A DNA stretch of 64,000 nt from a virus, in the IMG/VR virus record IMGVR_UViG_3300034418_011250, positions 1-64,000 of that record. One strand, given 5' to 3'. The notes under the pieces were generated by a model, which was given only the letters and a program-made list of their open reading frames with translations, was not told where the DNA came from and did no database searches. Positions 9,602-43,726 of the stretch are shown one piece after another. The translations under genes and the position numbers were made by a program. How positions within the stretch are numbered: the stretch's first letter is position 1; each line of letters begins with the position of its first letter.

Positions 9602-9804
9602 TTTACATATTCATATGGTGTTTGGTCTGATTCTACTAAATCTATTGTGCCATCAAAAACATATCCAAGACCATGTAAGAACTGTTCAAAATGTTCTAGA
9701 ACATCATTCAATGAATGATCTAATGGTATTCGATGTGTAATTTCAGATTCTTGTCCTTTATGATTGTTTACATATCTAAATTCAATGTATGAATTATACA
9801 GCAT
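9598..9804 (-). CDS. Hypothetical protein
   Basis: Translationally coupled ORF; FEQFLHGLGY motif common in phage small proteins. Confidence 0.6.
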   Translation of the reverse strand: MLYNSYIEFRYVNNHKGQESEITHRIPLDHSLNDVLEHFEQFLHGLGYVFDGTIDLVESDQTPYEYVK

Positions 9805-10475
9805 TATTTCCTCTCAAGCATCATTGGAAAAATAAATCCAAGAATATTTCCACATTGTTTTGCTATCTCAGCATGTTCCTTTTGCGTTCCATTTGAGGAT
9901 CTCAACTCCACATAATGAATCCATGAACGAAGTGTTCCATGCATCATCAATCTGGTTTTTGTCAATCCCTCTGGAAGAACTGCTCTTGCTTGTTCCTTGG
10001 CAATTCCTTGAGCAATAGCCCAATCATAGATTTGTCTTGCCTGTTCAATCAATTCAGACTGCCGTTGATCCCATTGCCAGATGAGTTTCTGATCATCGCA
10101 ATCAATAGAATTTTGTCGATTCTTTATATCCTGAATTCGACATTCTCTTTTGACAAATGTGTTTTCAATCTCATTAGGATTAGCATATCGTTGACTAAAT
10201 TCCTGAAAACTGAAACTGCGATGTCGAACAATCTGATGTGCGATGTCACGTGTTGTTTCAATTTCTAGGCAAGCACTAACCATCTCGAATGGGGACCAAT
10301 GCTTGTGTTTGATAAGGTAGCGTAGGAGCCTTTCGGACGTTTCAGTGTTGTGTTGGTTCGAGGGATTCGATACACGGGCACAATACGCAACGAGATCTTG
10401 GACATTTAAATCCTCCGATATTGATTGCAAAAACTCAGGTGATGCCTGAGTATAGCTTATTAGTTTAACACTCAT
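9804..10475 (-). CDS. thyX: Flavin-dependent thymidylate synthase
   Basis: RHRSFSFQEFSQRY signature, HWSPFE, KEQARAVLP. Confidence 0.97.
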   Translation of the reverse strand: MSVKLISYTQASPEFLQSISEDLNVQDLVAYCARVSNPSNQHNTETSERLLRYLIKHKHWSPFEMVSACLEIETTRDIAHQIVRHRSFSFQEFSQRYANPNEIENTFVKRECRIQDIKNRQNSIDCDDQKLIWQWDQRQSELIEQARQIYDWAIAQGIAKEQARAVLPEGLTKTRLMMHGTLRSWIHYVELRSSNGTQKEHAEIAKQCGNILGFIFPMMLERK

Positions 10476-10693
10476 CTGCGATTAAAATTCCTTCTTGGTG
10501 ATGGATTTTGTTGACGATGTGCAAGCACTTTCTGATAAGAAAGCTCTTTGAGACGTTGATTCAACTCACCATCACGTCTTTGTAATGTTGCACAGTCAAA
10601 CTCAAGCTCACGAACACGTGTCTCAAGTTGTTGTACTTTTAGAGCCAGATGATCACGATCACGAATTACATCTTCAATTGTTTGTTTTGCCAT
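10472..10693 (-). CDS. Hypothetical coiled-coil protein
   Basis: ORF with RBS overlapping thyX start. Confidence 0.6.
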   Translation of the reverse strand: MAKQTIEDVIRDRDHLALKVQQLETRVRELEFDCATLQRRDGELNQRLKELSYQKVLAHRQQNPSPRRNFNRR

Positions 10694-10700
10694 ATTTCCT

Positions 10701-11294
10701 CTACAGCATATTGATAAGATATTGTTTGCATCTTTTTATATCAGTTTCTATAAAAGATGCATATTTAAGAATAAGATTACGTTTCTGTGGCCATACAATG
10801 TTTTCCTTTATATCACGATCAAATTGATCTAGATAACTCAGAATCTGATTGAGTATGACCATTGTTTCGAGGTGAATTTGGCCACCAAGAAATCTCTTTA
10901 ATAATAGCGGATGTTGTCCTAAAACGCAAGTGAAAAGTGTATTGAAGTTGGAAGAATCAATTGATTCTGTTCTGAGAAGTTTTTCCATATCTGTCTGAAA
11001 AACATAACCAATACTCTGTTGAGTCTTTTTCCAATCAATGTAAGTCTGCTCATCATAATCACCAATCCATGCTTTTGGATTCTTGATTATATTAGCGACA
11101 AAATAGTCAAGTGTATTATCACCATACTTACGACCAATCCGATGAAAGAAAAATCTATCGTTTCTTTTAAGAAATGAAGACTTCTTTGCATTTGTTTTGC
11201 CAGAATACTTTTTAAAATCATAATGTTCTTTGGTAAAATGTAGTTTTAAGCCAAGATAGATTTTATAGGCATCCCAACTTTCCATAGCAAACAT
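10701..11294 (-). CDS. Helicase loader gp59
   Basis: YKIYLGLKLHF, YDFKKYSGK, SFLKRNDRFFF, IHLETMVIL; start MFAMES (11294) or MES (11285). Confidence 0.92.
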   Translation of the reverse strand: MFAMESWDAYKIYLGLKLHFTKEHYDFKKYSGKTNAKKSSFLKRNDRFFFHRIGRKYGDNTLDYFVANIIKNPKAWIGDYDEQTYIDWKKTQQSIGYVFQTDMEKLLRTESIDSSNFNTLFTCVLGQHPLLLKRFLGGQIHLETMVILNQILSYLDQFDRDIKENIVWPQKRNLILKYASFIETDIKRCKQYLINML

Positions 11295-11321
11295 TATACT
11301 CCTTCTCAGGAAAAATGTCAA
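11293..11321 (-). promoter_or_regulatory. Consensus sigma70 promoter (gp59)
   Basis: TTGACA-N17-TATAAT. Confidence 0.85.
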
Positions 11322-11327
11322 GTATTT

Positions 11328-11561
11328 TTATACAGGTAACTGAGAAACTTTGGGGATAAGATTGAGTTTCATAGCGTCCACTTCAATCTTTTCTTTAAGA
11401 GGTTTGGTAATAAGTGATGCCACAGTTTCTGGTTCTATTTTGTTTTCAGAACAATATTCCAGAACTGCATCAAGATATGAGATACCAGTTCGATTTACAA
11501 ATTCTTCAATCTCATATGAAAATTTTTTCGCACTCATAATTTTTAATTCTTCAAACATCAT
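11328..11561 (-). CDS. Late transcription coactivator gp33
   Basis: YLDAVLEYC, LITKPLKEKIEVDA...LP. Confidence 0.9.
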   Translation of the reverse strand: MMFEELKIMSAKKFSYEIEEFVNRTGISYLDAVLEYCSENKIEPETVASLITKPLKEKIEVDAMKLNLIPKVSQLPV

Positions 11562-11612
11562 TTAATTTTTCCTTTATGTTGGAGGTTTTTTGGCAGAACC
11601 TCCATAAACTGC

Positions 11613-11879
11613 TTATTTAGATTTTTCTCTGGCTTCAATTTCTAATGGATTATTCCAATATCCATGTTTAATTGTGTACCAAAAATAAAGAATTATAAAA
11701 ACAAACCAACCATGCCTTTCATACTGCATCATATGAACTTCTTCATGTCTCCGAATACTTTCATCATCAAGTGTCTTGAGATCACGATACCATGCAGTAT
11801 TTTTAGAAATGGTTATAGCAGTAAATTTTTTTGGAAAAAATCCTCTCAACCATTTAGGCATTAATTCATGTTTTTTCAT
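11613..11879 (-). CDS. Small HExxH metalloprotease-like protein
   Basis: RHEEVHMMQY ... YWNNPLEIEAR. Confidence 0.6.
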   Translation of the reverse strand: MKKHELMPKWLRGFFPKKFTAITISKNTAWYRDLKTLDDESIRRHEEVHMMQYERHGWFVFIILYFWYTIKHGYWNNPLEIEAREKSK

Positions 11880-12157
11880 TTCTTGTCTTTATTATCCACA
11901 AACTCTTGAAATTGTTTTGCAACTCCTAAAATTTGTTCAACTCCTGGATAATTCTTATAGAATTTTTCAGTGGAATTCATTGCTTCTTGATACAATTTCA
12001 TTCCTTCCTCTGAATTTTTTTTCATCATTTCTTCAGCTAAATAGAACTGGCGGTCAAAATAGGTTTGCTGCAATTCATACATGGATACCATGTATTCTTT
12101 TGCAGTGCTCAATAATTCTTGCCGAATTTGGAATGGATTCTTGTTTACTTCTGCCAT
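11876..12157 (-). CDS. Hypothetical protein
   Basis: NKNPFQIRQELL ... AKQFQEFV; strong AAGGAG RBS. Confidence 0.7.
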   Translation of the reverse strand: MAEVNKNPFQIRQELLSTAKEYMVSMYELQQTYFDRQFYLAEEMMKKNSEEGMKLYQEAMNSTEKFYKNYPGVEQILGVAKQFQEFVDNKDKK

Positions 12158-12160
12158 GTC

Positions 12161-12337
12161 TTATTCTCCTTTGTGTGTGTGAAAAAGTGTTGCCATAATT
12201 GTTTTGAAAATGTTTTTTCTTTTGCTTCTTTTCTCTTCCAGAAAATCAGCATATGCATATTCCCAATCATTTTTGTATTCTGCCTTAAAATATGATTTTA
12301 ATTCAGAATTGTCATGATGTAAGCATGAAAGATCCAT
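12161..12337 (-). CDS. Hypothetical 58-aa protein
   Basis: Manual translation MDLSCLHHDNSELKSYFKAEYKNDWEYAY...; TAAGGA RBS. Confidence 0.55.
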   Translation of the reverse strand: MDLSCLHHDNSELKSYFKAEYKNDWEYAYADFLEEKRSKRKNIFKTIMATLFHTHKGE

Positions 12338-12367
12338 GTTACTTTTCCTTATGTGTGTGATGTGAAT

Positions 12368-12620
12368 GTGGCAATTCTGTTTCTAGGTTTGCCACAAACC
12401 CACCTGCATCAAGCAGCCAAAGCTACTTGCGCAGAAGAATAATCAGAGTTGTTTGCCTCTAATTGAATTAGTGTTGGTCACTACCCTATTTGCTCTCTTT
12501 GCTATTTTCTTTTCTAGTCGAATGCCTTTACACCCCCATGTGTTGAAAAGAATATGGTGGAGGTGGCAGGAATCGAACCTGCGTGCTAAAAAATATCTTC
12601 ACATGTCAACAAGCAAATTC
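12368..12620 (-). ncRNA. ssrA: Circularly permuted (two-piece) tmRNA
   Basis: Acceptor piece ends GCAGG-TTCGATT-CCTGC-CACCTCC-A-CCA at 12555; 17-nt spacer; coding piece starts GGGGGTG at 12537 (G3.U70 Ala pair); tag ANNSDYSSAQVALAA-stop at 12456-12409. Outer ends approximate. Confidence 0.92.
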
Positions 12621-12764
12621 TTTTAGCTGTTCCTTTGCAGATTGTTCTCGTTTCTGAGTATTGATGTTCCATCGACCTTCATTATTACCCAGCCATCGAT
12701 GTGTGGTGCAAATGGTGCAGCGTACTGTCCTTTTTGATGCTTTTCTGCCTTTTCTTTTTTTCAT
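12606..12764 (-). CDS. Small basic CxxC protein
   Basis: MKKRKGRKASKRTVRCTICTTHRWLGN..., ATGA-coupled to upstream ORF. Confidence 0.5.
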   Translation of the reverse strand: MKKRKGRKASKRTVRCTICTTHRWLGNNEGRWNINTQKREQSAKEQLKEFAC

Positions 12765-13147
12765 AATGCCATACTGTTATCTGGATCAATCGGAATACCT
12801 TTAAACGGATCTGTCGAATTATCATTCGGCACCATACCACCATCAGGAGGCATAATTGTTAATTTAGTTCCTATTGCTAAAACACATGCCCAGTTTGTGT
12901 TATATACTTCGATGATTGAATATGTTTTTGTTTGGAAATTGTGAGCAATGATAACCTTTGCAGACATTGTTCCTTGTTGTGCTTGCAAAGTAGTGTCACC
13001 ATACATTACAGGATAATCACCTCTTTGCTCCGCAATTGCTACAACATTCTGTAATGGTGCACAAAAGATTGGCTTGTTTGCCATTTGTTGAGCATAAAGT
13101 GTACTGGTTGCAAATAGTCCACTAAGCAGTAGCAGAAATTTCTTCAT
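12761..13147 (-). CDS. Secreted/periplasmic hypothetical protein
   Basis: Signal peptide MKKFLLLLSGLFATSTLYA; KPIFC ... ACVLAIG. Confidence 0.6.
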   Translation of the reverse strand: MKKFLLLLSGLFATSTLYAQQMANKPIFCAPLQNVVAIAEQRGDYPVMYGDTTLQAQQGTMSAKVIIAHNFQTKTYSIIEVYNTNWACVLAIGTKLTIMPPDGGMVPNDNSTDPFKGIPIDPDNSMAL

Positions 13148-13817
13148 TTTCTTTCTCCCATTGAGTTGTAAATTCATCAATGGTTTCTACAAGAGGTTGA
13201 AGATAAGGTTTCTTTTCTTTCACAAACTCTTGAACAGTTCCATCCTCAGTTGTTGTTAGAATCACAACCTGATTGATTGGTGTTCCAGTCATTTCTTCAT
13301 ACATCTCTGTATAGGCAGAACCTTGAATGTAATAGTCTGTATTATATTCATCGTTTCGTTCTGACTTGGACGTCTTGAAATCAATGACAGAAAGTACACC
13401 TTTCCATTCACCAATACAATCAACACGTCCTGCCACACGGTATTTTTCGCTCCACATTGCCTGTTCTTGTAGATGAATATTATTCAGATTCTCATCCAGA
13501 ACAGGCTTTAGTTGTGTGAACATACACCATGGTAGAAACTTTTGTTTATGATGTTCTATGTCACTATTATTTATATAGTCTTCACAAATCTTATGAAAAG
13601 CTGTTCCTCTTGATGCAGATGTTCTTGAAATATAATTGGCAACATCATAACCAACAGAAGCTCTCCATTCTTTCAACCATTTTTTCTTTCTTTCTGTTGC
13701 TCCTAGGACTGTGGTGATTGAAGGAAATACACCACCAGATTCAGTGAAATAGAATCGTTTTCCATCTACTGTTTTAGCAGTGGCTTCTGGTAATGAAATG
13801 TTCAGATGCTTAAACAT
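13122..13817 (-). CDS. PD-(D/E)xK exonuclease (Cas4-like)
   Basis: PSITTVL, RGTAFH, AGRVDCIG, IDFKTS, YYIQGSAY. Confidence 0.88.
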   Translation of the reverse strand: MFKHLNISLPEATAKTVDGKRFYFTESGGVFPSITTVLGATERKKKWLKEWRASVGYDVANYISRTSASRGTAFHKICEDYINNSDIEHHKQKFLPWCMFTQLKPVLDENLNNIHLQEQAMWSEKYRVAGRVDCIGEWKGVLSVIDFKTSKSERNDEYNTDYYIQGSAYTEMYEEMTGTPINQVVILTTTEDGTVQEFVKEKKPYLQPLVETIDEFTTQWEKENEEISATA

Positions 13818-13990
13818 GATAATTAATAGCCTCTCATTCCGTAGTAATAATGTATGAAATAATCTCTTTGATCAGGTACATCACGAAAGAGACATTGTGT
13901 TTTTCTCCGATCTAGATCTTCTTCAATCGGAGCATATAGTATAGTAGTATTCACAACAAGTGCAATGAGCACAATCATTATTATTTTCAT

Positions 13991-14019
13991 ATTATACTAA
14001 ATGCTAATAAAAATGTCAA
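13991..14019 (-). promoter_or_regulatory. Consensus sigma70 promoter
   Basis: TTGACA-N17-TATAAT. Confidence 0.8.
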
Positions 14020-14022
14020 GGT

Positions 14023-14268
14023 TTATTCTTTGACAAACTTTATCTTCGTTTTAATATTCAGATATTTTTCTTCATCAGTATTCTCTGGCCATTCCTCTCG
14101 AAATTTCCTCATTCCTTCACGTTGAGCAGCAATCATTCCTATTGTTGTATGCTCTTGAATAATTTTTGAATATGTTGTTTTTTGGTTTTCATAAAAGTTT
14201 TTAATTTCGACATCAAATCGGAATGGCATTCTTTCTTTCCCAAAGCCCAAAAGGTTGTTGAGTCCCAA
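14023..14268 (-). CDS. Hypothetical protein
   Basis: ORF only; start uncertain and an alternative overlapping ORF begins at 14315. Confidence 0.4.
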   Translation of the reverse strand: MGLNNLLGFGKERMPFRFDVEIKNFYENQKTTYSKIIQEHTTIGMIAAQREGMRKFREEWPENTDEEKYLNIKTKIKFVKE

Positions 14269-14311
14269 GCATATACTTTAATATTTTTGTTTTGTTCTTC
14301 TATTTCTGCGC

Positions 14312-14764
14312 TCATGACAATTCAAAGTGTGGTGCATCGATGAATGGTCTTTTACCTTGACTTCTTCTTTCATCGATATAGTTATTCATGGCTTCTTCAG
14401 CTGTTCCTTCCCAAAGCGCAAGATCATCAATATTCCAAGCTGCTCCCCAACGAATCTTTACATCAAGCTCATAAGCTGCCTCTTTCATTGCATCAGCAAT
14501 GTCATCATATACGTTTAATTCCCAGCATCCTCTTCCATTGACATATGCCATCAAATCAACAGCATGTCCATGTAAATGCTTAGACTTCATTGTTTGAGAA
14601 GCACCAGCTGCAACTAGCTCTTTTTGTTTTTCTTCAGTTCTTAGTCCTTCAATGACACCAAAGTCAACCTTTGTCAATGTGATTGCCTTCTCAACCACTT
14701 CTACCAACTGAGGTTCAACACCTTCTAATTTGCTTTGTGATCTTCCCGATAATTTGAACATCAA
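14312..14764 (-). CDS. Endolysin, M15 family L-Ala-D-Glu peptidase (T5-like)
   Basis: EGLRT, SKHLHGHAVD, IRWG, FIDAPHFEL. Confidence 0.9.
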   Translation of the reverse strand: MMFKLSGRSQSKLEGVEPQLVEVVEKAITLTKVDFGVIEGLRTEEKQKELVAAGASQTMKSKHLHGHAVDLMAYVNGRGCWELNVYDDIADAMKEAAYELDVKIRWGAAWNIDDLALWEGTAEEAMNNYIDERRSQGKRPFIDAPHFELS

Positions 14765-41752: not shown

Positions 41753-42305
41753 GCATTTTTTTCATGAATTCTACAATTTTTTCTGTATCATCTGGAGTCT
41801 CGTGAACAAACGTCTTCACGCAGCCTTCTTCCTCTCCGAAAAGAGTAGCTCGTGGTCCAAAATGCTCAAGAATATTTTGAACCTTTGTCTTGGTAGTCTG
41901 AATGAATTTTTCAGATTGATCAGATCCTCTTTCTTTGTATCTTCGTTGTCTTTCTTCATCTGAAACTGTCAAGTGAATAATTGTCAACGAATCACCACAT
42001 GATTCAAAAAACTTCTTGTTGTTGAGACGATCTCCTTCGCCCACAATCATCTCATTTGTTCTCAAAACATTTGAAATCCAATCAATTGCTTTCGGAGCCA
42101 CTGCCATCGAAAGTCGATCTGTTCCTCCAAAAACTTCTTCATCATTATATTTTCCAAGCACTCTCAATTTTTTTTCTTTAATATATTGAGTATCAAGTAA
42201 ATCAGCTGGACGATCATCCTTCCAACCTTCAAATCCACTCATAAAGTTTCGCATCACAGTGGTCTTTCCAGTTCCTGGAATACCAATCAAATAAACTATC
42301 TTCAT
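41739..42305 (-). CDS. P-loop kinase (5hmU-DNA kinase-like)
   Basis: GIPGTGKTT, GTDRLS, GEGDRL. Confidence 0.75.
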   Translation of the reverse strand: MKIVYLIGIPGTGKTTVMRNFMSGFEGWKDDRPADLLDTQYIKEKKLRVLGKYNDEEVFGGTDRLSMAVAPKAIDWISNVLRTNEMIVGEGDRLNNKKFFESCGDSLTIIHLTVSDEERQRRYKERGSDQSEKFIQTTKTKVQNILEHFGPRATLFGEEEGCVKTFVHETPDDTEKIVEFMKKMLDIS

Positions 42306-43726
42306 TGAAAAAATCCTTCTAATGTAGGTTTTTGAGCATATGCTTCTGGATGATATTCTTGCACCATATCCCTTCCACCTTTGTCCTCTAGAAAATCATA
42401 CCATTCTTTCTCATTGAACATATTCGGTGAAACACCATTCCAATATTGTTTCCAAAGTCTATGACCTTTATTCAATCTCCTTGTGTCAACAAAGTTTTTA
42501 CGAATAGCTTCATATTCCCATGATCCAAGATTATCCATATCTTCACGGAAATAGAATACTAATGACATTCTCATCATGTTTTCTTCACCAGAATCTGGAG
42601 CAGTAATCGGTGTATTCCCATGAATAACACGCATGTTGTCAATTAGCAAAAGATCTCCAGGTCTGACATTGACAGCCATCCGAACTTCTGGAACAACCAA
42701 ATATCCACCTTTCCAGTCTTTGTTATCCTTTGTGATTACTGTTAGATTGCTATATCCAGCATTCAAAGAACCTGCATCTCGATGACATGCCATTCTGGCA
42801 TTTCTTTCCTTTGTTGTTGTATTGACAGTAATCGTGGTGAATGTAGTATCTTCGCCAATGAGAAATTTATTGTCGAGTCTATCAGCAAATTCTTGTTGTG
42901 CCAAATGTCGATTTGGCATTAGTCTTTTGAATTCTTTCTCCAGTTTTCTAGCAAACGGATAACATTTTGCAAACTGCTCAAGATTATTATCAGTATATGC
43001 TGTTGCTCTTCCATATGGAATTCTTGGATATCTTCCATAGTAACCAGCAATACCTGACCAAAGACCAGCAGCATATGCTGTATTTGAAATCCATTTTTCT
43101 CTTACAAGTTTTGAAAACTTTGTTGCCTCTTCAATTGGCATTGCTTTTATTCTACTCACCAGCTTAGGAAAAAATCCATCATATTCAGGATAATCTTGTT
43201 CTACAACATCTCGCAACCAACAGAATCCTCTGGTATTCTTGACATATTTTCCAAGATGTTCTTCCATAATAGTCTGTAATGGATCTGTTCCATCAAGACT
43301 TTTTGGTTGTCCTGCCATAAAATACTCAAGCACATCATATTGATATGGTGTTACCCATTCTCTTCCTGCTAGCTTTTCTGTTTTTGGACCAGCTGCGAGT
43401 CCTCGATTATGAGATTCAGCTGCAGCATCAAACAATCCTTCAAATGCACCTTGTTGTTCCTCAGCAGTAAAAACATTTTTTCTAAATTTAAAAGCAATTT
43501 TGCTTTCATCCGCAAGATCTGTATGATACTCTTTTTTATCATAATTGTATTCAGGTGGAAAGTATAAATCTGTATCACTATCAATCAGAATATCATATGA
43601 TTCATCATTAACATATGTTCCCAAAACTTTTTCTTCATCAAGAACCTGCATGGCAACATAAACATCTTGTCCTTCATCCCCTTTATATTTCTGCCACTTA
43701 TTTCCATTTATTTCTAAAATTTCCAT
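42302..43726 (-). CDS. TET/JBP-family 2OG-Fe(II) dioxygenase
   Basis: FTTITVN, ACHRDAG (HxD), GDLLL..HGNT, RMSLVFYFRE. Confidence 0.8.
   Translation of the reverse strand: MEILEINGNKWQKYKGDEGQDVYVAMQVLDEEKVLGTYVNDESYDILIDSDTDLYFPPEYNYDKKEYHTDLADESKIAFKFRKNVFTAEEQQGAFEGLFDAAAESHNRGLAAGPKTEKLAGREWVTPYQYDVLEYFMAGQPKSLDGTDPLQTIMEEHLGKYVKNTRGFCWLRDVVEQDYPEYDGFFPKLVSRIKAMPIEEATKFSKLVREKWISNTAYAAGLWSGIAGYYGRYPRIPYGRATAYTDNNLEQFAKCYPFARKLEKEFKRLMPNRHLAQQEFADRLDNKFLIGEDTTFTTITVNTTTKERNARMACHRDAGSLNAGYSNLTVITKDNKDWKGGYLVVPEVRMAVNVRPGDLLLIDNMRVIHGNTPITAPDSGEENMMRMSLVFYFREDMDNLGSWEYEAIRKNFVDTRRLNKGHRLWKQYWNGVSPNMFNEKEWYDFLEDKGGRDMVQEYHPEAYAQKPTLEGFFQ

What the first reader, a model, noticed from the sequence alone, without database searches (positions are those of the whole stretch)
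12368..12620. Phage-encoded circularly permuted two-piece tmRNA with its own degron tag
Seen: the T-arm + acceptor 3' half with encoded CCA comes before the GGGGGTG 5' half, separated by 17 nt. The halves form a 7-bp acceptor stem with G3.U70. Also present: a compact pseudoknot (GGT-AGTG-ACC-AA-CACT), UAGAG before the resume codon, tag ANNSDYSSAQVALAA, a 3' pseudoknot (TGGGTTT/AAACCTA, GTGGC/GCCAC) and inter-piece pairing GAGCAAAT/ATTTGCTT. Known: permuted tmRNAs occur in alphaproteobacteria, some marine cyanobacteria and some betaproteobacteria, and C-terminal LAA is a ClpXP degron. No smpB lies in this window. Inference: the phage supplies ribosome rescue, possibly against mRNA-cleaving defences, and the gene form points to the host group.
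Basis: partly seen in the sequence, partly recalled or inferred. Interest (0 to 1): 0.85.

Follow-up and report, generated by a model that had tools for sequence, protein, structure and literature searches.

The report
Two-piece tmRNA gene in lake phage
This uncultured T4-like freshwater phage carries a complete, well-conserved "two-piece" gene for tmRNA, the RNA that frees stalled ribosomes and tags their unfinished proteins for destruction. Such genes were already described in its closest cultured relatives in 2022, so it is a solid but ordinary new example.

Summary
On the minus strand, 12620-12368 is a circularly permuted tmRNA gene. ARAGORN gives the tag ANNSDYSSAQVALAA, and Rfam tmRNA_permuted scores 86.4 bits against a cut-off of 47.

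Of 400 pair-by-sequence cells, 99% are paired, and 14 pairs show compensatory changes against 0-3 in shifted controls. The tag frame has 8-9 synonymous codon changes and one replacement, so the peptide is under selection.

The record is a T4-like phage fragment. Its DNA polymerase is 66% identical to that of Methylophilales phage Melnitz. The gene sits at the same place (PD-(D/E)XK nuclease ... ssrA ... gp33-gp59-thyX) as the published two-piece ssrA of Melnitz and Pelagibacter phage HTVC008M. No SmpB or integrase is encoded.

The kind is therefore known (PMC9004378). A pattern scan also found 112 IMG/VR contigs with a permuted tmRNA core, and this scan has reported the same thing on other DNA.

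Local particulars:
- The spacer is 17 nt and there is no glutamine riboswitch.
- The T-loop is canonical, yet the 3' pseudoknot is of the alphaproteobacterial type.
- None of the three lineage models (alpha, beta, cyano) reaches its cut-off.
- A conserved upstream 52-codon gene overlaps the first helix by 13 nt.

The host-group inference and the anti-defence role are not established.

The parts
12555..12620 (-). Acceptor piece of the tmRNA. It holds the 5' strand of the inter-piece helix (12618-12611), second helix strands (12604-12601 and 12593-12586), the T arm (12582-12566, loop TTCGATT), the acceptor 3' strand (12565-12559), the discriminator A (12558) and the encoded CCA (12557-12555).
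   Evidence: Covariation: the T stem shows A-U to C-G, and the helix at 12593-12586 has 4 compensatory pairs.
12538..12554 (-). 17-nt intervening spacer, presumably removed on maturation. RNase P would cut 5' of G12537. The spacer is too short to hold a gene. Its 3' part TTTCAAYAYAT is conserved in the family.
   Evidence: Removal is inferred from two-piece tmRNA biology as summarised in PMC11915505 and PMC9004378.
12368..12537 (-). Coding piece. It holds the acceptor 5' strand GGGGGTG (12537-12531), helix partners (12517-12510, 12502-12499, 12495-12488), PK1 (12485-12470), the tag reading frame (12456-12409) and the 3' pseudoknot (12402-12368).
12470..12485 (-). Compact pseudoknot PK1. Stem 1 is GGT/ACC (invariant) and stem 2 is AGTG/CACT.
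   Evidence: stem 2 has 2 of 4 pairs with compensatory change (AGTG/CACT in the window, GATG/CATC in sister lineages). Stem 1 never varies, so comparison neither supports nor contradicts it.
12409..12456 (-). Tag reading frame: GCA resume codon, 15 codons encoding ANNSDYSSAQVALAA, then a TGA stop.
   Evidence: 8-9 synonymous codon differences against 1 replacement (S8P) between lineages, including a TCT to AGC serine switch.
12368..12402 (-). 3' pseudoknot. The stem 1 core is TGGGT/ACCTA. Stem 2 is GTGGCA/TGCCAC. Loop 3 carries the invariant AACAGAA.
   Evidence: 1 compensatory pair in stem 1 and 4 of 6 in stem 2. The same design follows the tag region in Melnitz, HTVC008M and Rhodobacterales tmRNAs.
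12606..12764 (-). Conserved 52-codon upstream gene encoding a basic protein with a CxxC motif. Its last four codons and stop (GAA TTT GCT TGT TGA) overlap the first 13 nt of the tmRNA's 5' helix region.
   Evidence: 17 synonymous against 8 non-synonymous codon differences versus L087, and the other two frames are closed. No Pfam or PHROG match.
12161..12337 (-). 58-codon downstream gene. It starts 31 nt after the 3' pseudoknot, behind an AAGGAA ribosome-binding site.
   Evidence: 93-97% identical in L087, L088 and L031. No terminator-like site lies between it and the tmRNA on this strand.
13989..14019 (-). Nearest upstream consensus sigma-70-type promoter-like site on the gene's strand (TTGACA-17-TATAAT). 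It is a candidate start of the transcript that carries the tmRNA.
   Evidence: One search found no promoter-like site just upstream of the tmRNA and no minus-strand terminator in 11200-14000. This is a pattern match only.
9804..11561 (-). Syntenic downstream block: gp33 late-transcription coactivator (11328-11561), gp59 helicase loader (10701-11321), a small ORF, and thyX (9804-10475).
   Evidence: The order is the same downstream of ssrA in Melnitz. In HTVC008M only the gp33 homologue is seen downstream, and a peroxiredoxin gene follows it.
13122..13817 (-). PD-(D/E)XK exonuclease gene upstream of the tmRNA, as in Melnitz and HTVC008M.

Best explanation
This is a functional two-piece (circularly permuted) tmRNA gene, ssrA, of an uncultured freshwater T4-like myophage related to Methylophilales phage Melnitz.

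Shown:
- The gene has every sequence and structure element of a two-piece tmRNA.
- Its helices co-vary across related phage contigs.
- Its tag peptide is under purifying selection.
- It lies at the same genomic position as the ssrA of Melnitz and HTVC008M.
- It has no promoter or terminator of its own that a consensus scan can see.
- The record encodes no SmpB, and neither do the complete genomes of Melnitz and HTVC008M.

Inferred:
- It is probably transcribed as part of a multi-gene early-type transcript.
- Host RNase P cuts before G12537, other host RNases trim the ends and remove the 17-nt spacer, and the two pieces stay together through the 8-bp and neighbouring helices.
- Host AlaRS charges it through G3.U70.
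- Host SmpB and EF-Tu deliver it to ribosomes stalled on broken mRNAs.
- Translation then resumes on GCA and adds ANNSDYSSAQVALAA, whose ...ALAA end sends the product to host ClpXP-type proteases.

The likely benefit is to keep ribosome rescue going in a small, ribosome-poor host. After host DNA and mRNA breakdown, host ssrA expression stops and non-stop mRNAs multiply.
For: - Detectors: ARAGORN calls a permuted tmRNA. RF04321 scores 86.4 bits against a cut-off of 47.
- Covariation: 50 pairs, 99% of cells paired, 14 pairs with double changes against 0-3 in slid controls.
- Tag selection: 8-9 synonymous codon changes against 1 replacement.
- Phage identity: gp43, gp41, gp46, gp32, gp33, gp59, UvsW-like helicase, RNR and thyX are present. 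DNA polymerase is 66% identical to Melnitz. The record is an IMG/VR virus record.
- Synteny with the published ssrA of Melnitz and HTVC008M.
- No SmpB in the record or in those two complete genomes. No integrase.
- Contigs from RNA libraries of a roughly 95%-identical strain span the spacer and continue into the downstream gene. This is weak evidence: depth is about 4 and DNA carry-over is not excluded.
- Literature: PMC9004378.
Against: - There is no direct evidence of processing, charging, SmpB binding or tagging.
- PK1 is unusually small (3 + 4 bp with no loop nucleotides on two sides). Its first stem never varies, so comparison does not test it.
- The window's gene falls below the cut-offs of all three lineage-specific Rfam models.
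- Compatibility with the unknown host's SmpB is assumed.
- The record is only about 49% complete, so a phage SmpB elsewhere cannot be excluded for this phage itself.
Confidence: 0.85

Rival explanations
1. Counter-defence. The phage tmRNA is kept mainly to rescue ribosomes stalled by host mRNA- or tRNA-cleaving abortive-infection toxins. General upkeep of translation after host shut-off would then be secondary.
For: It is mechanistically plausible, because cleaved mRNAs are the natural tmRNA substrate. The gene lies in an early-type gene block behind a sigma-70-like promoter-like site.
Against: No defence or anti-defence gene was linked to it here. The same family occurs in quite different phage contexts. 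The published discussion favours upkeep of the hijacked translation machinery or amino-acid recycling.
Confidence: 0.15
2. Decoy. The RNA competes with host tmRNA for SmpB or AlaRS and so blocks host trans-translation. This was shown in E. coli for the tag-less tmRNA-like RNA of mycobacteriophage DS6A (cited in PMC11915505).
For: The tRNA-like domain is intact and no phage SmpB is present. The D-loop-side variant GGNATTCGA combined with this acceptor was found in none of 185,579 bacterial species genomes.
Against: The tag frame is intact and under strong purifying selection at the peptide level. PK1 and the resume context are conserved. A decoy would not need any of these.
Confidence: 0.05
3. 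Dead cargo or attachment-site remnant. On this reading it is a host ssrA copy or fragment picked up by imprecise excision, or used as an integration target, with no function in the phage.
For: tmRNA genes are common integration sites, and prophages can carry fragments of them (PMC9004378). One sister contig is classed as a provirus by IMG/VR.
Against: The gene is complete. It keeps compensatory changes and synonymous-only drift across three lineages. It sits in the replication block of a T4-like lytic-type genome with no integrase in the 88.9-kb record. It is not closely similar to any bacterial tmRNA found.
Confidence: 0.02

Closest known systems
Two-piece ssrA of Methylophilales phage Melnitz (gene 86; Buchholz et al. 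2022, PMC9004378)
   Same: It is a permuted tmRNA in a T4-like aquatic myophage at the same genomic position: PD-(D/E)XK nuclease, small ORFs, ssrA, small ORFs, gp33, gp59, thyX. The 5' helix motif TTTGCTTG, the GCAAAC start of the tag, the ...ALAA end and the 3' pseudoknot with the AACAGAA loop are shared. Neither phage encodes SmpB. DNA polymerases are 66% identical.
   Different: Identity is only 46-49% over the two pieces. Melnitz has the alpha-type T-loop (GGGGCAGTACCC), a 142-nt spacer, a TATAAATA motif just upstream, and a glutamine riboswitch right after the gene (52.8 bits). The window has a canonical TTCGATT T-loop and a 17-nt spacer. It has no riboswitch and no promoter of its own. 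An upstream gene overlaps its 5' end. Melnitz scores 106.7 bits on alpha_tmRNA and the window 28.1.
ssrA of Pelagibacter phage HTVC008M (unannotated in KC465899; found here at 145161-145370)
   Same: It is a permuted tmRNA between the exonuclease gene and the gp33 homologue. It has the same 3' pseudoknot design, no riboswitch and no SmpB.
   Different: Its tag is ANFNEYALAA, its spacer is 49 nt, and it has the alpha-type T-loop. Identity is 44-46%.
Cellular two-piece tmRNAs of Alphaproteobacteria (Rfam RF01849; e.g. Rhodobacterales, Caulobacter)
   Same: The gene order is permuted and G3.U70 is present. The pseudoknot after the tag region (GGGTTT...ACCT...AACAGAA...) was recovered in 16 Rhodobacterales genomes among 18 hits of a pattern scan. 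Sister phage sequences L085 and L062 pass the alpha model at 70.3 and 68 bits.
   Different: The window scores 28.1 bits, below the cut-off of 50. Its T-loop is canonical rather than the GGCGGTACC type. The Rhodobacterales genes have a longer region after the tag. Identity is about 45%.
Two-piece tmRNAs of the betaproteobacterial and cyanobacterial lineages (Rfam RF01850, RF01851)
   Same: Both have the permuted order and a canonical T-loop. For the window itself these two models outscore the alpha model, at 55.7 and 43.8 bits.
   Different: Both scores are below the cut-offs of 84 and 70. The pseudoknot after the tag is of the alpha type.

Membership tests
Two-piece (circularly permuted) tmRNA, Rfam RF04321 | Permuted gene order: the T arm, acceptor 3' strand and CCA lie upstream of the acceptor 5' strand | tested here: met
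   Sequence reading; ARAGORN 'tmRNA*'
Two-piece (circularly permuted) tmRNA, Rfam RF04321 | Covariance-model score at or above the curated gathering score | tested here: met
   86.4 bits against 47, E = 3.5e-15, full model length 1-213
Two-piece (circularly permuted) tmRNA, Rfam RF04321 | 7-bp acceptor stem with the G3.U70 alanine identity pair and discriminator A | tested here: met
   GGGGGTG pairs with CACCTCC, followed by A and CCA. The stem is invariant in all 8 distinct family sequences.
Two-piece (circularly permuted) tmRNA, Rfam RF04321 | Helices that hold the two pieces together | tested here: met
   Three helices (8, 4 and 8 bp) are 87.5-100% paired and have 6 pairs with compensatory change
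Two-piece (circularly permuted) tmRNA, Rfam RF04321 | Tag reading frame that starts at an alanine resume codon and ends in a hydrophobic ...LAA-type degron before a stop | tested here: met
   GCA...ALAA-TGA; purifying selection on the peptide
Two-piece (circularly permuted) tmRNA, Rfam RF04321 | Pseudoknot PK1 just upstream of the resume codon | tested here: met
   A compact 3+4-bp pseudoknot. Stem 2 has 2 compensatory pairs and stem 1 is invariant. Steric feasibility was not tested.
Two-piece (circularly permuted) tmRNA, Rfam RF04321 | Maturation into two RNAs, alanylation, SmpB binding, and tagging activity | not testable with these tools
   Only assembled contigs from RNA libraries were available, and these cannot show RNA ends
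alpha_tmRNA, Rfam RF01849 | Score at or above the gathering score (50 bits) | tested here: not met
   The window scores 28.1 bits. Sister lineages L085 (70.3) and L062 (68), Melnitz (106.7) and HTVC008M (83.8) pass.
alpha_tmRNA, Rfam RF01849 | Alpha-type pseudoknot after the tag region (GGGT...ACCT...AACAGAA loop) | tested here: met
   Shared with 16 Rhodobacterales tmRNA genes recovered by pattern, and with Melnitz and HTVC008M
beta_tmRNA, Rfam RF01850 | Score at or above the gathering score (84 bits) | tested here: not met
   55.7 bits
cyano_tmRNA, Rfam RF01851 | Score at or above the gathering score (70 bits) | tested here: not met
   43.8 bits
Melnitz-type phage ssrA with glutamine riboswitch (PMC9004378) | Position between the PD-(D/E)XK nuclease gene and the gp33-gp59-thyX block of a T4-like aquatic myophage | tested here: met
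Melnitz-type phage ssrA with glutamine riboswitch (PMC9004378) | glnA-type glutamine riboswitch directly 3' of the tmRNA | tested here: not met
   No match at the gathering score in the window, nor at E up to 10 in 10500-14500. Positive control: Melnitz scores 52.8 bits.

The most novel reading that the evidence does not exclude
In this sub-lineage the tmRNA has no promoter of its own and is carved out of a messenger. The conserved 52-codon gene upstream ends 13 nt inside the tmRNA's first helix. If the 5' end of the acceptor piece is made by cleavage at about 12620, that cut removes the gene's stop codon. The upstream message then becomes a built-in non-stop substrate of the very tmRNA released from it, a self-coupled control of that small protein. 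More modestly, the family may be a phage-only two-piece lineage. It combines a canonical T-loop, an alpha-type pseudoknot and a D-loop-side variant seen in no bacterial species genome, and it appears to be exchanged between unrelated phages.
Probability: 0.1. Interest if true: 0.5.

Novelty: new member of a known kind. Interest (0 to 1): 0.22.

Why it matters
It adds a freshwater, riboswitch-free, short-spacer example to the phage two-piece tmRNAs already known from Melnitz-like and SAR11 myophages. It also supplies comparative evidence that such phage genes are used for tagging and are not mere remnants: co-varying helices and a tag under peptide-level selection. The gene fits none of the three lineage models, and the same family sits in unrelated phage contexts. 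Both facts caution against reading a phage's host from the form of its tmRNA gene. None of this changes how trans-translation or phage takeover is understood.

Tried and rejected
1. blastn of the gene against 50,697 phage records found no match. The family is too diverged for DNA search, so I used a covariance model and patterns instead.
3. A genome-contig scan for this acceptor plus the GGNATTCGA variant found 0 bacterial hits.
4. A class-wide pattern search in 401 alphaproteobacterial genomes returned mostly tRNA 3' ends followed by chance G-runs. About five looked like canonical-T-loop permuted tmRNAs. One genome in that sample, G248, is unpublished.
5. BLAST of the gene against five bacterial genomes with the shared pseudoknot gave nothing useful.
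6. RNA-library contigs have low depth, come from a roughly 95% relative, and are contigs only. They bridge the spacer and the downstream gene but cannot show RNA ends or rule out DNA carry-over. Stretches without cover are not interpreted.
7. The minimum-free-energy fold (z = -3.7) recovers the acceptor stem and the stem 2 hairpin but not the full tmRNA fold. This is expected for a pseudoknotted two-piece RNA.
8. Looked for and not found: a glutamine riboswitch, an integrase, tRNA genes anywhere in the record, and a late-promoter TATAAATA or sigma-70 site just upstream.
9. Host assignment is left open. The polymerase is closest to an OM43 phage, the habitat is freshwater, and the tmRNA has mixed features.

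Full report
**Observation.**
- A T arm (GCAGG / TTCGATT / CCTGC), the acceptor 3' strand CACCTCC, a discriminator A and an encoded CCA ending at 12555.
- A 17-nt spacer.
- GGGGGTG starting at 12537, which closes a 7-bp acceptor stem with G3.U70.
- The small pseudoknot GGT-AGTG-ACC-AA-CACT.
- TAGAG, then a GCA resume codon and a 15-codon frame for ANNSDYSSAQVALAA ending in TGA.
- A 3' pseudoknot.
- An 8-bp helix between ATTTGCTT and GAGCAAAT that would tie the two pieces together.

ARAGORN calls a permuted tmRNA with exactly this tag. The Rfam model tmRNA_permuted matches over its full length at 86.4 bits (gathering score 47, E = 3.5e-15). It is the only Rfam family to reach its cut-off in the 64-kb window.

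**Comparative test.** A pattern for a permuted tRNA-like core found 112 IMG/VR viral contigs. ARAGORN finds permuted tmRNAs with many different tags in most of them. Eight contigs carry the same tag family (ANNSDYS[S/P]AQVALAA) at 75-92% nucleotide identity, in three lineages.

Of 400 cells, 99% are paired. Fourteen of 50 pairs show changes on both sides, against 0-3 when the partners are slid by 1-3 columns.

Compensatory changes support these elements:
- The inter-piece helix (A-U to U-A).
- The neighbouring 8-bp helix (4 pairs).
- The T stem.
- Stem 2 of PK1 (AGTG/CACT against GATG/CATC).
- Stem 2 of the 3' pseudoknot (4 of 6 pairs).
- The outermost pair of its stem 1.

Stem 1 of PK1 and the acceptor stem never vary, so comparison does not test them. 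The changes fall on few branches (three lineages), so they represent a handful of events, not dozens.

The tag frame differs between lineages at 8-9 codons synonymously, including a TCT to AGC serine switch, and at one codon by replacement. That pattern is expected if the peptide itself matters. It argues against a decoy or a remnant.

**Context.** The record is an IMG/VR virus record of 88.9 kb, about 49% complete. The window carries a T4-type replication and transcription set: gp43 polymerase, gp41 helicase, gp46-like nuclease subunit, gp32, gp59, gp33, a UvsW-like helicase, ribonucleotide reductase and thyX. The polymerase is 66% identical to that of Methylophilales phage Melnitz, with cyanomyophages next at about 52%. 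The tape measure protein weakly matches HTVC008M and Melnitz.

The local gene order is endolysin, small ORFs, PD-(D/E)XK nuclease, a hypothetical gene, a small ORF, tmRNA, three small ORFs, gp33, gp59, a small ORF, thyX. This is the order around the annotated ssrA of Melnitz. HTVC008M shares the nuclease-ssrA-gp33 part, around an unannotated permuted tmRNA that I located at 145161-145370.

There is no SmpB in the record, and none in the complete genomes of Melnitz and HTVC008M. No integrase is present, and there are no tRNA genes anywhere in the record. DNA nearly identical to the stretch is held by many runs labelled freshwater metagenome, which may belong to one campaign. A roughly 95% relative is held by salt-marsh metatranscriptome assemblies.

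**What is already known.** Buchholz et al. 2022 (PMC9004378) describe the two-piece ssrA of Melnitz. They count 53 two-piece genes among 133 unique phage tmRNA structures from 402 tmRNA-carrying phages, almost all from aquatic phages. They find permuted tmRNAs in 17 of 47 Melnitz-like contigs, and they discuss upkeep of the hijacked translation machinery or selective tagging as roles. The 2025 tmRNA database paper lists 79 phage sequences and introduces the model that hits here (PMC11915505). This scan's own notes report the same kind of gene many times on other DNA, including a lake T4-like phage judged 'ordinary new member'. The kind is therefore known, and this is a new member.

**What is particular here.**
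1. The spacer is only 17 nt, against 142 nt in Melnitz and 49 nt in HTVC008M. It cannot hold a gene, unlike the spacers noted elsewhere in this scan.
2. There is no glutamine riboswitch. The Melnitz control gives 52.8 bits directly after its tmRNA.
3. The window's gene passes none of the lineage-specific models: alpha 28.1 against a cut-off of 50, beta 55.7 against 84, cyano 43.8 against 70. Its sisters L085 and L062 pass the alpha model at 70.3 and 68 bits.
4. Its parts look mixed. The pseudoknot after the tag, with an invariant AACAGAA loop, is the one found after the tag region of Rhodobacterales tmRNAs (16 of 18 hits of a pattern scan over 185,579 species genomes) and in Melnitz and HTVC008M. 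The T-loop, however, is canonical TTCGATT, not the GGCGGTACC-like loop of those alpha-type genes. The D-loop-side variant GGNATTCGA combined with this acceptor occurs in no bacterial species genome scanned.
5. Overall identity to Melnitz and HTVC008M (44-49%) is no higher than to a Rhodobacterales tmRNA (45%), despite the shared position.
6. The same tmRNA family sits in contigs with quite different neighbours, including RNR subunits, an endolysin and unknowns. The gene therefore seems to move between phages or to be replaced in place.
7. In the window's sub-lineage a 52-codon gene ends 13 nt inside the tmRNA's first helix. It shows 17 synonymous against 8 non-synonymous codon differences versus L087, and the other frames are closed.
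8. The sister lineages and Melnitz have AT-rich promoter-like sequence at that spot (TATAAT or TATAAATA). In the window, the nearest consensus promoter-like site on that strand is about 1.4 kb upstream (14019-13989). No terminator-like site separates the tmRNA from its neighbours, and the next gene starts 31 nt after the pseudoknot. The RNA is thus probably cut out of a polycistronic transcript, as T4 cuts its tRNAs. This is inference.

**Mechanism.** The shown and inferred steps are separated under the best explanation. In short, the phage supplies the RNA half of trans-translation and borrows SmpB, AlaRS, EF-Tu, RNase P and the ClpXP-type protease from the host. I take the likeliest benefit to be keeping ribosome rescue going once the host genome and host messages are being destroyed. 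A decoy role and a dead remnant are made unlikely by the selection on the tag and on the helices.

**Host.** The published Melnitz case already pairs an alpha-type ssrA with a non-alphaproteobacterial host. The present gene fits no lineage model, and I could not obtain named SAR11/LD12 or Methylophilaceae tmRNAs for a direct comparison. The polymerase kinship with an OM43 phage and the freshwater source suggest a small freshwater heterotroph as host. That is a guess.

**Verdict.** The novelty claim and the host and defence inferences are overstated. This is a new member of a known kind, of low to moderate interest.

Noticed in passing
window 12606-12764 (-): A conserved 52-codon basic protein gene (CxxC motif, no family match) overlaps the tmRNA's first helix by 13 nt. 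Cleavage at the tmRNA 5' end would remove its stop codon.
   Followed up: partly
L085:8047-8375, L062:7887-8214 (and L103, L017, L108): The same tmRNA family (same tag) sits in viral contigs whose neighbours are unrelated to the window's: an RNR small subunit, an endolysin and unknown genes. One of these contigs is classed as a provirus by IMG/VR. This suggests exchange of the gene between different phages.
   Followed up: partly
L116:1565-1706 (Melnitz ssrA spacer): The 142-nt spacer of the Melnitz two-piece tmRNA contains a GGAG-type ribosome-binding site followed by an ATG and an open frame. This fits the spacer-borne small genes noted elsewhere in this scan.
   Followed up: no
L117:1460-1801 (KC465899 145161-145370): Pelagibacter phage HTVC008M has a permuted tmRNA (tag ANFNEYALAA; 90.6 bits on RF04321, 83.8 on alpha_tmRNA). 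It is not annotated in the GenBank record stretch shown.
   Followed up: yes
L139:1421-1742; L132: A standard one-piece tmRNA in a Caldisericales MAG (tag ANNIDYNRNVAFAA) has the same pseudoknot after the tag (GGGTTT...ACCT...AACAGAA). A Gracilibacteria MAG contig also matched the pattern, but ARAGORN called no tmRNA there.
   Followed up: no
window 14019-13989 (-) and 11321-11293 (-): Two perfect sigma-70 consensus sites (TTGACA-17-TATAAT) lie on the gene strand. One is ahead of the nuclease-tmRNA block. The other is at the gp59 start.
   Followed up: no
window 42302-43726 (-): A 474-aa protein in phrog_24024 has a weaker match to queuine tRNA-ribosyltransferase. It may be a DpdA-like 7-deazaguanine DNA-modification enzyme.
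   Followed up: no
window 12100-12900: Near-identical DNA is held by many runs labelled freshwater metagenome (2017-2018, possibly one campaign). A roughly 95% relative is held by salt-marsh metatranscriptome assemblies.
   Followed up: partly
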